Source: a virus
UHGV virus genome: UHGV-0254345
DNA: 25,301 nt
Strand: one strand, 5' to 3'
Part shown: positions 1 to 11,505 of the stretch, piece after piece
Layout of the letters: each line of letters opens with the position of its first letter
Numbering within the stretch: position 1 is the first letter of the stretch
Translations under genes and position numbers: made by a program
Notes under the pieces: model-generated
The model's database searches: none
The model's input: only the letters and a program-made list of their open reading frames with translations
What the model was told of the DNA's origin: nothing

Positions 1-2
1 AG

Positions 3-218
3 TTAAGAAAGCGTCCTGATTTCCTTGTCTGGCTCTGTGAAAAGCTGGGGGTAATGAGAATCCCCTCCATGTTTAACATGGACTCCTGGTGGACCCCGTC
101 GCTCTCCCGTGATGCCCTGTGCGTGGTGTTTAAAGTAGGCGCTTATGGCAGGGAAATAAAAGGGGGTATTCCTGAAGAATGCCAGGAGATTAAACATTCT
201 GAATATGTGGCGCTGACG
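3..218 (+). CDS. 3' end of an upstream gene (hypothetical protein, partial)
   Basis: Open frame from window edge to TAA at 216-218 (…GREIKGGIPEECQEIKHSEYVALTEE*); not in ORF track because it lacks an in-window start; protein-like composition; same strand as downstream operon. Confidence 0.3.
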
Positions 219-230
219 GAGGAATAATTC

Positions 231-578
231 ATGATTGATGCAAAAGTGCTTGAAGGGGTTAAAAACTGGCTGAGTATTTACGGGCGTCTGACCTGCGGCA
301 TTCTGGCTGAAAAAATGAATATGCCGCCATCCTCGATGGTTTATTTTCTGCGTGATGCGGTCGATGCCGGGGTGCTGACGGAATGTAACGGTTTTTATGA
401 TATTCCGCGTCCCCGCCCGGTGCAGCCGGTTCGTCGCAAATGCAGCCAGGAAGGTGCGGCTGATGATGTTCAGTGGTGCAGCTTCAGAAAATCCCTGCCG
501 TGGATTGAGGGGCATGATATTCCGTCAATGGCGTGGGAATTTGCTCAGGGCGTTCTGACCTGTATTTGTCCTCCGTAA
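231..578 (+). CDS. putative HTH DNA-binding protein, probably C-terminally truncated by rearrangement
   Basis: ATG at 231 preceded by GGAGG (about 9 nt upstream); N-terminal helix-turn-helix-like segment; last 13 in-frame residues SMAWEFAQGVLTC are encoded by repeat A (521-563), then a 4-codon tail (ICPP) ends inside repeat B. Confidence 0.5.
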   Translation: MIDAKVLEGVKNWLSIYGRLTCGILAEKMNMPPSSMVYFLRDAVDAGVLTECNGFYDIPRPRPVQPVRRKCSQEGAADDVQWCSFRKSLPWIEGHDIPSMAWEFAQGVLTCICPP

Positions 579-747
579 AACGCAGTCCCTTAAAACAAAA
601 ACCACTGATACTGAATTCAAATACCGACCGGCACGCAACATTCAGCACGGCCTCAAGGCGTTTCGCCTCATCCTTAACTTTCTGGCAGTCCTGCTGATAT
701 TTTTGCCACGCGGCCAGCGCGGAAGGGTTTGATGTTTTAAAGAACAT
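484..747 (-). CDS. hypothetical protein; N-terminal part looks like the displaced 5' half of a gene (fused via repeat B to an out-of-frame tail)
   Basis: Minus-strand ATG (plus 745-747) preceded by GGAGG about 8 nt upstream on the minus strand, overlapping the stop of the upstream minus ORF as TAATG; contains repeat-B-encoded peptide FEFSISGFCFKGLRFTEDKY. Confidence 0.4.
   Translation of the reverse strand: MFFKTSNPSALAAWQKYQQDCQKVKDEAKRLEAVLNVACRSVFEFSISGFCFKGLRFTEDKYRSERPEQIPTPLTEYHAPQSTAGIF
521..563. repeat. inverted repeat A (43 bp), partner at 948-990
   Basis: tccgtcaatggcgtgggaatttgctcagggcgttctgacctgt is the exact reverse complement of 948-990 by direct comparison. Confidence 0.9.
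564..619. repeat. inverted repeat B (56 bp), partner at 991-1046
   Basis: atttgtcctccgtaaaacgcagtcccttaaaacaaaaaccactgatactgaattca is the exact reverse complement of 991-1046; abuts repeat A. Confidence 0.9.
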
Positions 748-983
748 TACGCCACCTCCGCAGATATCCCGGCAGGCGCGGCCGTCCGGTCAACAATCAG
801 GTAACGCAGAACGCGCGAGGTGATATTCCAGCCGCTTAAACCGCAGATAATGACACCCAGGCGTATGTCGATATACGCCATCACAAACCGGGGCACGCCT
901 TCTTTCATGGCCTGCTCATCAACTTCAGCCACCACATAAACGGTTTCACAGGTCAGAACGCCCTGAGCAAATTCCCACGCCAT
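747..983 (-). CDS. hypothetical protein fragment; looks like the displaced 3' half of the gene at 231-578
   Basis: Begins MAWEFAQGVLTC (encoded by repeat A' in the same frame as in ORF 231-578); no clear SD before its ATG; stop overlaps next minus ORF start. Confidence 0.35.
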   Translation of the reverse strand: MAWEFAQGVLTCETVYVVAEVDEQAMKEGVPRFVMAYIDIRLGVIICGLSGWNITSRVLRYLIVDRTAAPAGISAEVA

Positions 984-990
984 TGACGGA
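948..990. repeat. inverted repeat A' (reverse complement of 521-563)
   Basis: Exact 43-bp reverse-complement match. Confidence 0.9.
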
Positions 991-1378
991 TGAATTCAGT
1001 ATCAGTGGTTTTTGTTTTAAGGGACTGCGTTTTACGGAGGACAAATATCCTTTTCATCGCGACTTATGGCGAAAACCGACTGCGTCGAATGGCTGGAGCT
1101 GCACGCCGCGCACATCGCGCATTCCCAAAGCCCTGCGCACTGCCTCTGACGAACTGAACAGTCTGTGGCGTGAATATTCGCCCGTCACGTATGCCAGAAC
1201 CGATGCCCTGTTGTTCTGGCTGGGCATTGATTTCTCAGCAATCCTGTATGGCCCTGTGGAGTGGTTCTGCGTTGACGATGTGATTTATCTTCAGTGCGGT
1301 GTAAAACCCGCAAATCAGAAAATGACCGAAATTCTGTCTGATGAGTTTTATGCTGCTGAAAAGCGAGTCAGGGGGTGA
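983..1378 (+). pseudogene. hypothetical protein lacking its native 5' end (start only via TTG, no SD)
   Basis: Frame is open from 854; first candidate start is TTG 983 with no RBS; N-terminal 20 aa duplicate the repeat-B peptide of the minus ORF 484-747; ends 3 nt before the next gene. Confidence 0.4.
991..1046. repeat. inverted repeat B' (reverse complement of 564-619)
   Basis: Exact 56-bp reverse-complement match (a 57th base may also match). Confidence 0.9.
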
Positions 1379-1381
1379 TGC

Positions 1382-1933
1382 ATGATGAAATTACAACCCA
1401 TGGGGCGAAAAGGTCGTGCACCTGCTCATGTCCGCCCGTGGACACCTGAAGAAGATGCGCTGCTGATTGCGCTTTATTCCTCCACCCCGGTTAAGGATAT
1501 TGCCGCCAGAATAAAAAGAAGTGTCTGGGCCGTATATAACCGGACTGGCGTATTGCGCAGTACATACCCGGAGTTGCTGAAATATAAACGACCGCGATTT
1601 ACACCTGATGAAGATAAATTTATCCGAAAAAATGCCCGGACAATGACCTGCCAGCAAATGGGGGATTATCTCGGACGTAATAAAGACTCTGTCAGGTGCC
1701 GCGCAGGAATGATTGGTGCCGGATTAACAAAGTGCGGTGAGTTACGCCCCGGCACACGTATATCTGATGAGGATGTTCGTCTTATACGTGCACTACGGGA
1801 TTCCGATTACCCTCGCCGTCTGTCATTCCGGGAAATTGGCGAAAAGTTTGGCATATCTGAACATTCTGCTCACGCTGTTTATTACCGTCGACGGACCGCC
1901 GAGGACGCTGTATTACGGGAGTTAACGCCATGA
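1382..1933 (+). CDS. putative DNA-binding protein with tandem Myb/SANT-like HTH repeats
   Basis: GGGGG SD-like run upstream of ATG; three repeats of a W/F-T-P-(E/D)-ED…L-like motif (PWTPEEDALL, RFTPDEDKFI, ISDEDVRLI) typical of Myb/SANT-type helix-turn-helix domains; stop overlaps next start (ATGA). Confidence 0.5.
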   Translation: MMKLQPMGRKGRAPAHVRPWTPEEDALLIALYSSTPVKDIAARIKRSVWAVYNRTGVLRSTYPELLKYKRPRFTPDEDKFIRKNARTMTCQQMGDYLGRNKDSVRCRAGMIGAGLTKCGELRPGTRISDEDVRLIRALRDSDYPRRLSFREIGEKFGISEHSAHAVYYRRRTAEDAVLRELTP

Positions 1934-2115
1934 TAAAGAGACTTGTATTTTTCGCAATTATCGTTCCAGTGTGGGGGACTGGTTTTATATTTGCGATTAC
2001 AGGAAACCTGTCCATTATGCCTGACATTTGGTTCTTTATCAGGATGTCGCTCTTCCTGTTTATTATGGATTTTCTCATCGGTATATACATTCGTATTTCC
2101 GGGAGGCGTAAATGA
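1930..2115 (+). CDS. small membrane protein (two predicted TM helices), hypothetical
   Basis: ATGA overlap with upstream stop; 61 aa, very hydrophobic (LVFFAIIVPVWGTGFIFAI… / MSLFLFIMDFLIGIYI); lies in AT-rich segment. Confidence 0.45.
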   Translation: MIKRLVFFAIIVPVWGTGFIFAITGNLSIMPDIWFFIRMSLFLFIMDFLIGIYIRISGRRK

Positions 2116-2486
2116 GAAAAATCACGTCCTTGTCAGAGTTACAGGAGATGAATATGAGCATTGAATTAAGAACGTCTTATGAATATCGTAAAATTCTTAT
2201 CGCCGGAGGTATGAAACCGGAAGATGCGGAAAAAATCGTTTCTTTTATGGATAAAGAATGTGACAAACGGGATGTGCCAGAAATTATTATGGATGACATG
2301 ATTCTGGATTCAGCCGTAGCGTTAAGTCCGTTATGGATTGTGCATTCTCTTGCAGAAATTGCCAGAGGCACCGATAAAATGGCTGCTGTTGCTGCCCTTC
2401 AGACGCTTAATGAAATGCGTATATCTCCACGCCCGACATTAATACATATGATTCTGTCCAGCATGGAGGATAAAGCTAATGAATAG
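2112..2486 (+). CDS. hypothetical protein (acidic, soluble)
   Basis: ATGA overlap with upstream stop; 124-aa ORF in AT-rich segment; no recognised motif. Confidence 0.45.
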   Translation: MRKITSLSELQEMNMSIELRTSYEYRKILIAGGMKPEDAEKIVSFMDKECDKRDVPEIIMDDMILDSAVALSPLWIVHSLAEIARGTDKMAAVAALQTLNEMRISPRPTLIHMILSSMEDKANE

Positions 2487-2676
2487 TCTACCCGCTGGAT
2501 GGGCGCGGCCATTGATGGCTAAGAAGCATCATTTTTTTAAAACAGGTGAAAATATCAGTATATGTGGGCGGTGGTTATATCTGGCTCATAATCGCGAGCC
2601 GGATACATTTGAAAGCCCTGATGACTGTGCCGAATGCCGCAGAAGACTGAATAAGGAGAAAGATAATGGACAGTAG
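2479..2676 (+). CDS. small hypothetical protein, possible Cys-containing metal-binding motif
   Basis: Overlaps upstream stop; 65 aa with ICGRW…DDCAEC spacing; weakly supported. Confidence 0.35.
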   Translation: MNSLPAGWARPLMAKKHHFFKTGENISICGRWLYLAHNREPDTFESPDDCAECRRRLNKEKDNGQ

Positions 2677-11422: not shown

Positions 11423-11505
11423 CGGTCAGTGGCGGGGGTCGAACCCGCATACATGATCCACCCGGAGGCAGGCACCGACTTTACCAGTTAAGCGTACACT
11501 GACCG
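11423..11505 (-). other. tRNA-like structured element (acceptor-like stem plus canonical T-arm; no anticodon arm found)
   Basis: On the minus strand: 9-bp perfect stem (11423-11431 with 11497-11505) stacked on a 5-bp stem GCGGG/CCCGC closing a 7-nt loop TTCGACC (T-loop-like); a D-arm-like hairpin with GG loop is possible; hand search found no 5-bp anticodon stem. Confidence 0.3.

What the first reader, a model, noticed from the sequence alone, without database searches (positions are those of the whole stretch)
231..1378. Conceptual inversion of the central segment reconstitutes two intact co-directional genes
As found, four ORFs on both strands share repeat-encoded peptides. ORF 231-578 ends with SMAWEFAQGVLTC then a 4-codon tail; minus ORF 747-983 starts MAWEFAQGVLTC; minus ORF 484-747 has a strong GGAGG RBS and contains FEFSISGFCFKGLRFTEDKY; plus ORF 983-1378 begins with the same peptide but has only a TTG start and no SD. 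Placing segment 620-947 in the opposite orientation gives (1) the HTH protein continuing in frame through repeat A into the body now on the minus strand (about 177 aa), and (2) a downstream gene with the GGAGG RBS, TAATG coupling, repeat-B peptide and the body of 983-1378 (about 171 aa). So the present state splits two genes. Either this is a fossil of an inversion that inactivated two non-essential early genes, or an ON/OFF inversion switch; no recombinase is visible in the window (a Mu Gin-type invertase, if present, would lie beyond the right end).
Basis: partly seen in the sequence, partly recalled or inferred. Interest (0 to 1): 0.75.

Follow-up and report, generated by a model that had tools for sequence, protein, structure and literature searches.

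The report
One-off inversion scar breaking two prophage genes
A 428-base piece of a Mu-like prophage of E. coli has been put back in reverse, with short copies of its two ends left behind; this breaks two dispensable early phage genes (gp11 and gp12 homologues) and is a private, very recent mutation (or an assembly error), not a genetic switch.

Summary
Its stated operation does not: inverting 620-947 alone fails, because one copy of each repeat must also be removed.

The anatomy is A(521-563) B(563-619) X(620-947) A'(948-990) B'(991-1047), two interleaved perfect inverted repeats. [1..563]+rc(620..947)+[991..] is identical base for base to E. coli FORC_069 (2401/2401). That genome annotates intact 177-aa (Mu Gp11) and 171-aa (Mu Gp12) genes there. 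Conversely, ancestral[1..563]+rc(ancestral[521..947])+ancestral[892..] reproduces all 25,301 bases of the window, so one event explains everything.

Neither new junction occurs in 232 E. coli genomes carrying this prophage, or in IMG/VR, GTDB representatives or JGI metagenomes. Three records identical to the window over 5.5-7.4 kb still have the intact arrangement. The junctions share only 1 and 0 nt of homology, and no Gin/gix-like site lies in the repeats.

Verdict: a singleton inversion with inverted duplications at both ends. Its cause was a double inter-strand template switch or staggered breaks, unless it is an assembly artefact. It knocks out both genes. The "fossil inversion" reading is supported; the "ON/OFF switch" reading is not. 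Low interest.

The parts
231..578 (+). Truncated Mu Gp11 homologue: codons 1-111 of the 177-aa gene, then 4 foreign codons (ICPP) and a stop read from repeat B
   Evidence: the PF25754 Gp11_C domain spans residues 90-167 of the intact protein, so it is cut at residue 111
521..563 (+). Repeat A (43 nt), the copy contiguous with the left flank, in ancestral orientation
   Evidence: 100% complementary to 948-990
563..619 (-). Repeat B (57 nt), the inverted copy of B' and left end of the inverted block. Base 563 (T) is shared with A, giving 1 nt of junction overlap at new junction J1 (563/564)
620..947 (-). Unique segment X, now inverted. On the minus strand it carries gp11 codons 112-177 plus stop, the GGAGG RBS with TAATG stop/start overlap, and gp12 codons 1-42 plus two bases of codon 43
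   Evidence: rc(620-947) restores 2401/2401 identity to FORC_069
948..990 (-). Repeat A' (43 nt), the inverted copy of A and right end of the inverted block. New junction J2 lies at 990/991 with 0 nt of overlap
991..1047 (+). Repeat B' (57 nt), the copy contiguous with the right flank, in ancestral orientation
747..983 (-). Orphan gp11 C-terminal fragment ORF (78 aa, residues 100-177 of the intact protein), antisense to the early operon
   Evidence: phrog_24761 / phrog_1949
484..747 (-). Orphan gp12 N-terminal fragment (62 native residues plus a 25-aa out-of-context tail), antisense to the early operon
983..1378 (+). gp12 C-terminal body (native sequence from base 991, the last base of codon 43, to residue 171), left without its ATG or RBS. 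The TTG at 983 is fortuitous

Best explanation
This is a mutation scar, not a device. The source is a Mu-like prophage of E. coli. In the ancestral arrangement, the early-operon genes for a 177-aa Gp11 homologue and a 171-aa Gp12 homologue lie head to tail.

A single local rearrangement re-inserted the 428-nt block spanning ancestral 521-948 in reverse orientation. The first 43 nt (A) and the last 57 nt (B') of that block were also kept in the left and right flanks. The result is an inversion bounded by inverted duplications of both of its own ends, giving A B X A' B' and a net gain of 99 nt.

In four-point notation the window equals L->1 (ancestral 1-563), then 2->3 (reverse complement of 947-521), then 4->R (892 onward). 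The order of the points on the ancestor is 3-1-4-2.

The mechanism I think most likely (inferred) is a double inter-strand template switch at a replication fork. The growing strand leaves its template at the end of A and copies the opposite parental strand backwards from the end of B' to the start of A. It then returns to its own template at the start of B'. The equally product-compatible alternative is two pairs of staggered nicks, 43 and 57 nt apart, followed by fill-in and blunt end joining of the flipped piece.

Consequences:
- Shown: gp11 is truncated at residue 111. gp12 is split after about codon 43, and its 5' part with the RBS now faces backwards.
- Inferred: the early transcript now carries about 800 nt with no translated native gene and can form a perfect 57-bp duplex. 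This may lower expression of downstream early genes.

The event is private and very recent.
For: - Exact reconstruction. [1..563]+rc(620..947)+[991..2500] equals FORC_069 at 2401/2401 bases. The forward simulation from the ancestral sequence reproduces the whole 25,301-nt window.
- Intact genes in the relative. FORC_069 annotates 177-aa and 171-aa CDSs at those positions.
- Full-length family matches. Gp11_C PF25754 at 8.5e-40; phrog_1949 over 1-176 of 176; phrog_2314 over 1-170 of 173. PF26885 Phage_Mu_Gp12 is recorded on identical-length neighbours.
- Polarity and uniqueness. In E. coli genomes, 0 of 232 genomes (548 places) span either junction, and no record exceeds 83% coverage. Both 26-nt junction strings are absent from IMG/VR, GTDB representatives and JGI metagenomes. 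The chimeric ORF products are not on record. All 55 IMG/VR gp11 loci are colinear, with no inverted repeat of 20 nt or more.
- Recency. Repeat copies are 100% identical. L006, L007 and L009 match the ancestralised window with 0 mismatches over 5.5-7.4 kb yet have the intact arrangement. Only 4 SNPs separate the window from FORC_069 over 25.2 kb.
- Junctions. Overlap is 1 nt and 0 nt, and there is no imperfect homology nearby.
- Model fit. The inverted-duplication signature is the one described for staggered-break inversions (PMC1885836), and the event fits the four-point template-switch model (PMC7954356). Point 2 lies ahead of point 1, so only an inter-strand switch is possible.
- Host repair. 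E. coli lacks Ku/LigD c-NHEJ (PMC11297215). This favours a replicative route over end joining.
Against: - No reads are available, so the arrangement rests on one assembled sequence of unknown origin.
- Junction overlaps of 1 and 0 nt are unusual for template switching primed by microhomology. They fit fill-in plus blunt joining better, so the choice between the two mechanisms is weak (roughly 60:40).
- A multi-step route cannot be excluded. One example is a tandem inversion duplication later trimmed by two deletions.
- The effects on downstream expression are inferred only.
Confidence: 0.75

Rival explanations
1. Assembly or sequencing artefact: the rearranged block does not exist in the organism's DNA. 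It would come from chimeric molecules (for example polymerase template switching during amplification or library preparation) carried into the consensus.
For: The arrangement is a singleton in every collection searched. Sequence-identical relatives have the intact form. The origin and read support of the window are unknown.
Against: Typical chimeric or fold-back artefacts have one junction. Here two novel junctions return precisely to colinearity 57 nt upstream of the entry point, and all four points lie within 428 nt. Random ligation of fragments would not reproduce that. The rest of the window is clean, with 4 SNPs and no other structural difference over 25 kb. A consensus assembly needs majority read support.
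Confidence: 0.15
2. Programmed ON/OFF invertible switch: a site-specific invertase, such as the prophage's Gin-type enzyme, flips the segment to turn gp11 and gp12 on and off.
For: Perfect inverted repeats bound the segment. The closest relative encodes a Gin-like recombinase about 2.2 kb beyond the window's right end.
Against: - The two states differ by 99 nt, whereas site-specific inversion is conservative.
- The repeats are interleaved. A flip at A/A' restores gp11 but leaves gp12 with a 33-aa insertion. A flip at B/B' restores only gp12. No single flip gives the intact pair.
- There is no gix-like site in the repeats. The best 26-mer matches in 500-1047 are 15/26, lie in X, and are equalled at 26-32 other window positions. 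The AAACCNNGGTTT core is absent from 500-1060.
- No relative shows the derived state.
- The present state encodes only fragments.
Confidence: 0.03
3. Multi-step origin: a tandem inversion duplication (three copies, the middle one inverted) or another duplication-inversion intermediate formed first. Two later deletions then trimmed the outer copies to 43 and 57 nt.
For: A-Y-B' / B-X-A' / A-Y-B' with 'Y-B'' deleted from copy 1 and 'A-Y' deleted from copy 3 gives exactly A B X A' B' (my derivation from the anatomy). Such duplications are discussed for Salmonella and E. coli in the literature cited in PMC4417113.
Against: It needs three events where one suffices. No intermediate is seen in any relative. 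There is zero divergence.
Confidence: 0.05

Closest known systems
Inversions flanked by inverted duplications of both breakpoint regions (staggered-break model; Ranz et al. 2007, PMC1885836)
   Same: Ancestrally unique sequences at both breakpoints are each duplicated in inverted orientation at the ends of the inverted segment. There were no pre-existing repeats. The duplications reveal which state is derived. Duplication sizes are similar (the shortest in that study was 46 bp).
   Different: Those cases are kilobase-to-megabase inversions in Drosophila, attributed to NHEJ. This one is 428 nt in a prophage of E. coli, which lacks Ku/LigD NHEJ (PMC11297215). It is a private variant rather than a fixed difference.
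Short-range template-switch mutations, four-point model (Loytynoja & Goldman 2017, cited in Walker et al. 2021, PMC7954356); quasipalindrome template switching in E. coli (own knowledge: Lovett laboratory)
   Same: The descendant is exactly L->1, reverse-complement 2->3, 4->R of the ancestor. All four points lie within a few hundred nucleotides. The event is necessarily inter-strand because point 2 lies ahead of point 1.
   Different: Most described events copy tens of nucleotides and create or perfect a single hairpin (types 1-4-3-2 and 3-2-1-4). Here 427-428 nt are copied, the order is 3-1-4-2, and two interleaved inverted repeats result. There is no quasipalindrome or microhomology at the switch points.
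Phage Mu G segment / Gin-gix invertible switch (and Hin, Cin, Pin)
   Same: The setting is a Mu-like prophage, the segment is bounded by inverted repeats, and a Gin-like gene is present in the closest relative.
   Different: This rearrangement is not conservative, has no gix-like sites, has interleaved repeats, yields no alternative functional product and is never seen in relatives. It works like a mutation, not like a switch.
Tandem inversion duplication (Kugelberg et al. 2010, own knowledge; mentioned in PMC4417113)
   Same: An inverted central copy is joined to direct outer copies through two novel junctions formed by strand switching.
   Different: Here the outer copies are reduced to 43 and 57 nt and the central unique part is present once, so there is no copy-number gain of the genes.

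Membership tests
Site-specific invertible switch (Gin/Hin-type) | One pair of inverted recombination sites flanking the invertible segment | tested here: not met
   There are two interleaved pairs, in the order A B X A' B'. No single flip restores both genes.
Site-specific invertible switch (Gin/Hin-type) | Conservative exchange: both orientations have the same length and content | tested here: not met
   The derived state is 99 nt longer than the intact state.
Site-specific invertible switch (Gin/Hin-type) | Crossover sites resemble the element's gix sites | tested here: not met
   The best 26-mer match in 500-1047 is 15/26, lies outside the repeats, and is equalled at 26-32 other window positions. 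The core pattern is absent from 500-1060.
Site-specific invertible switch (Gin/Hin-type) | Both orientations occur among relatives or populations | tested here: not met
   0 of 232 E. coli genomes span either junction. 0 of 55 IMG/VR loci do. Both junction strings are absent from three large collections. Within-culture heterogeneity is not testable without reads.
Site-specific invertible switch (Gin/Hin-type) | Invertase encoded in the element | tested here: inconclusive
   There is none in the window. A 190-aa 'recombinase family protein' sits next to the G segment about 2.2 kb beyond the window end in FORC_069.
Inversion with breakpoint inverted duplications (staggered-break type) | Breakpoint sequences are single-copy in the ancestral state | tested here: met
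   A and B' occur once each in FORC_069 and in L006, L007 and L009. IMG/VR loci have no inverted repeat of 20 nt or more.
Inversion with breakpoint inverted duplications (staggered-break type) | The segment is inverted, and the sequence between each pair of breaks is present at both ends in inverted orientation | tested here: met
   43-nt A/A' and 57-nt B/B', both 100% identical. The exact forward simulation reproduces the window.
Inversion with breakpoint inverted duplications (staggered-break type) | Junctions formed by end joining without homology | tested here: inconclusive
   The 1-nt and 0-nt overlaps are compatible. However, E. coli lacks c-NHEJ (PMC11297215), and the enzymology cannot be read from the sequence.
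Four-point template-switch mutation | Descendant = L->1 + reverse complement (2->3) + 4->R of the ancestor, with all points local | tested here: met
   anc[1..563]+rc(anc[521..947])+anc[892..] equals the window over 25,301 nt. The points are 3=521, 1=563, 4=892 and 2=947/948.
Four-point template-switch mutation | Arose during replication by polymerase strand switching | not testable with these tools
   The product is identical to that of the staggered-break route. There is no microhomology to argue for priming.
Phage Mu Gp11 family | Gp11_C domain and full-length similarity to the family | tested here: met
   The reconstructed 177-aa protein hits PF25754 at 8.5e-40 (135 bits against a cut-off of 27) and phrog_1949 over 1-176 of 176. 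The window's own ORF keeps only residues 1-111.
Phage Mu Gp12 family | Full-length similarity to the family | tested here: met
   The reconstructed 171-aa protein hits phrog_2314 over 1-170 of 173 at 6.8e-84. PF26885 is recorded for the 171-aa neighbours. The local Pfam copy gave no hit.

The most novel reading that the evidence does not exclude
The rearrangement is real and was made in vivo without microhomology. It would then be a natural bacterial example of a staggered-break or end-joining inversion in a host that lacks NHEJ, conceivably helped by the prophage's own Ku-like Gam protein, which is encoded just upstream. The interleaved 43- and 57-nt repeats it created would also make the locus a slow recombination-driven multi-state system. 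A flip at A/A' restores gp11, a flip at B/B' restores gp12, and a subsequent direct-repeat deletion regenerates the wild type exactly.
Probability: 0.07. Interest if true: 0.5.

Novelty: new member of a known kind. Interest (0 to 1): 0.22.

Why it matters
It matters mainly as a correction. What looks like an invertible switch is a private knock-out mutation of two function-unknown, apparently dispensable Mu early genes, so it carries no regulatory meaning.

It has modest value as an unusually clean example of its kind. Both the ancestral and the derived sequence are known to the base, with no later divergence. It shows an inversion with inverted duplications at both ends in a bacterium, a class documented mostly in eukaryotes. 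The near-zero junction homology bears on how such events form in a host without NHEJ.

It is also a warning for annotation. The four ORFs here are fragments of two genes.

Tried and rejected
- **Search for the derived form.** I tried exact look-ups of the 115-aa, 87-aa and 131-aa chimeric products. I scanned both 26-nt junctions in IMG/VR, GTDB representatives and JGI metagenomes. I ran junction-spanning BLAST against 5,426 E. coli genomes. All were negative.
- **The 78-aa ORF look-up** found only contigs that happen to start at that ATG and continue into the intact gp12. This is a selection effect of exact matching, not evidence for the rearrangement.
- **Tracing the source through the window's private GemA S166F variant** found identical-sequence contigs, all with the intact arrangement.
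- **Gin/gix hypothesis.** I tested a core pattern scan, a local alignment of A+B against the relative's G-segment ends (score 15, equal to the maximum of 200 shuffles), and a 26-mer scan. None showed a site in the repeats.
- **Microhomology or imperfect homology at the switch points:** none beyond 1 nt.
- **New promoter or terminator created by the inversion:** none in 500-1050.
- **Structured RNA or tRNA:** no Rfam or ARAGORN hits in the window.
- **A shared motif at the four breakpoints:** a and d both precede TCC, but four sites are too few to interpret.

Full report
**1. What is in the sequence**

- 231-578 (+) ends ...SMAWEFAQGVLTC, then ICPP and a stop.
- 747-983 (-) begins MAWEFAQGVLTC.
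- 484-747 (-) is preceded by GGAGGTGGCGTAATG and contains FEFSISGFCFKGLRFTEDKY.
- 983-1378 (+) begins at a TTG with the same peptide.

The shared peptides are encoded by two perfect inverted repeats: A = 521-563 with A' = 948-990 (43 nt), and B = 563-619 with B' = 991-1047 (57 nt). Perfect inverted repeats of these lengths are expected about 4e-18 and 2e-26 times by chance in 25 kb. The next-best inverted repeat in the window is 26 nt at 77%.

The order on the + strand is A B X A' B'. These are two interleaved repeat pairs, not one pair flanking a segment.

**2.

Inverting only 620-947 leaves B and A' between the parts to be joined and does not match any relative. Replacing 564-990 by the reverse complement of 620-947 does work. 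It gives a sequence identical at 2401 of 2401 bases to E. coli FORC_069, NZ_CP023061.1 3336688-3339088.

That record annotates two head-to-tail CDSs at exactly these positions, with a TAATG stop/start overlap.

The reconstructed 177-aa protein carries the Phage Mu Gp11 C-terminal domain (PF25754, 8.5e-40, residues 90-167) and matches phrog_1949 end to end. The 171-aa protein matches phrog_2314 end to end. PF26885 (Phage_Mu_Gp12) is recorded for the 171-aa proteins at this position in related contigs.

The surroundings are a Mu-like prophage. Gam lies upstream. A SANT/Myb-like protein, GemA, Mor, lysis, head and tail genes lie downstream. In the relative, a G segment with a Gin-like recombinase lies 0.8-2.8 kb beyond the window's right end.

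**3. One event explains the whole difference**

Take the ancestral sequence and write ancestral[1..563] + reverse complement of ancestral[521..947] + ancestral[892..end]. This reproduces all 25,301 bases of the window.

So the 428-nt block A-Y-B' was re-inserted backwards, while A also remained attached to the left flank and B' to the right flank. The net gain is 99 nt (43 + 57 - 1). The two new junctions share 1 nt (the T at 563) and 0 nt (990/991) with the sequences they replace, and there is no imperfect homology nearby.

**4. Which state is derived, and how old the event is**

Every relative has the intact arrangement:
- In 5,426 complete E. coli genomes, 232-233 carry this region (548 places). 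None spans either new junction, and none exceeds 83% coverage of 1-2500.
- Both 26-nt junction strings are absent from IMG/VR, from one genome per GTDB species, and from JGI metagenome contigs.
- The chimeric ORF products are not on record among 153 billion gene positions.
- All 55 IMG/VR loci encoding a gp11 relative are colinear wherever the contig allows. None has an exact inverted repeat of 20 nt or more within 2.5 kb.

Apart from the rearrangement, the window differs from FORC_069 by only 4 SNPs in 25.2 kb.

Three other records are identical to the ancestralised window over 5.5-7.4 kb, and all have the intact genes. They are GCA_043180155.1, a gut metagenome scaffold and a Logan contig. 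The longer two matches cover three of the four SNPs (the shorter Logan match covers two).

The rearrangement is therefore younger than the youngest point mutations of this lineage, and the repeat copies have not diverged at all. It is a singleton.

**5. How it arose (inferred)**

The anatomy is the signature described for inversions generated by two pairs of staggered breaks, followed by fill-in and end joining. In that model, ancestrally unique breakpoint sequences become inverted duplications at both ends of the inversion (Ranz et al. 2007, PMC1885836).

It is equally the product of a single event in the mechanism-agnostic four-point template-switch model (PMC7954356). The points are 3=521, 1=563, 4=892 and 2=947/948, giving the order 3-1-4-2. 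Point 2 lies ahead of point 1, so the copied template had not yet been replicated and only an inter-strand switch is possible.

The two routes give the same product. I favour the replicative route, roughly 60:40, for two reasons. E. coli lacks Ku/LigD end joining (PMC11297215). The break route needs two helicase-assisted separations of 43-57 bp plus two blunt ligations. Against that, the near-absence of junction microhomology fits fill-in and joining better.

A three-step route is possible but less parsimonious: a tandem inversion duplication trimmed by two deletions.

**6. Artefact?**

I cannot see reads, so an assembly or library artefact remains a live rival at about 0.15.

Several points argue against it. 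Two junctions return exactly to colinearity, and all four points lie within 428 nt. The rest of the 25 kb is structurally clean. Common chimeras and fold-backs have a single junction.

**7. Why it is not a switch**

- Site-specific inversion is conservative, but here the two states differ by 99 nt.
- The repeats are interleaved. A flip at A/A' restores gp11 and gives gp12 an in-frame 33-aa insertion (204 aa). A flip at B/B' restores only gp12. The wild type returns only after a further deletion between the resulting direct repeats.
- The repeats contain nothing resembling the prophage's gix sites.
- No relative shows the derived state.
- The present state encodes only fragments.

RecA-dependent exchange between 43-57-nt repeats could occur at low frequency (inference from general knowledge). 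That would be a by-product, not a designed switch.

**8. Consequences**

Shown:
- gp11 stops after residue 111 plus ICPP, which cuts the Gp11_C domain.
- The gp12 start, its RBS and its first 62 codons now lie on the minus strand, antisense to the early operon.
- The gp12 body (983-1378) has no native start.

Inferred:
- The early transcript has about 800 nt (579-1381) with no translated native gene.
- That transcript is predicted to form the perfect 57-bp B:B' duplex (MFE -224.8 kcal/mol, z = -9.1). A:A' cannot form at the same time because the two helices cross.
- Rho-dependent polarity or RNase III cleavage could lower expression of the downstream genes, including gemA and mor.
- No new promoter-like or terminator-like site appears in 500-1050.

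gp11 is evidently dispensable for prophage carriage. An independent IMG/VR contig has it interrupted by an IS element.

**9. Verdict**

The 'fossil inversion that inactivated two early genes' reading is essentially right, apart from the exact geometry and the age. The 'ON/OFF switch' reading is not supported.

This is a new instance of a known class of mutation. It has low general interest and some value as an exceptionally clean bacterial example, with the ancestor known to the base.

Noticed in passing
L073 2001-2314 (IMGVR_UViG_2548876695_000005): In this related prophage the gp11 homologue is interrupted after codon 81 by the end of an insertion sequence (TGAACCGCCCCGGGAATCCTGGAGAC...; IS3-family/IS629-like from memory). 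This is an independent natural knock-out of the same gene.
   Followed up: partly
window about 11424-11503 (= L005 12013-12092, minus strand): The RefSeq record of the closest relative annotates a 'tRNA-OTHER' here, between the head-morphogenesis and virion-morphogenesis genes. ARAGORN and Rfam find nothing in the window.
   Followed up: partly
L005 26718-28693 (0.8-2.8 kb beyond the window's right end in FORC_069): A tail-fibre G segment bounded by an 86-nt, 90% inverted repeat with gix-like sites (e.g. TTCCCGTAAACCGAGGTTTTCAGGAA), next to a 190-aa Gin-like recombinase. This is the prophage's genuine invertible switch.
   Followed up: partly
window 3455, 5449, 6188, 22231: These are the only four point differences from FORC_069 in 25.2 kb. 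Three are non-synonymous (GemA S166F, Gp27 T59A, baseplate protein S139N). The first three are shared with GCA_043180155.1 and a gut metagenome scaffold (the first two also with a Logan contig); all three records carry the intact gp11-gp12 arrangement.
   Followed up: yes
ancestral breakpoints corresponding to window 520/521 and 1047/1048: Both outer ends of the inverted block lie immediately before TCC (GATAT|TCCG and AAATA|TCCT). With only four breakpoints this cannot be told from coincidence.
   Followed up: no
L002, L003, L004 (Logan SRR27235310; ENA ERZ27268483, ERZ28569539): Three short metagenome contigs start within 0-2 nt of the internal ATG of gp11 (ancestral position 528), so their edge gene call equals the window's 78-aa orphan ORF. 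They continue into intact gp12. This is a selection effect of exact-sequence look-up, not the rearrangement.
   Followed up: yes
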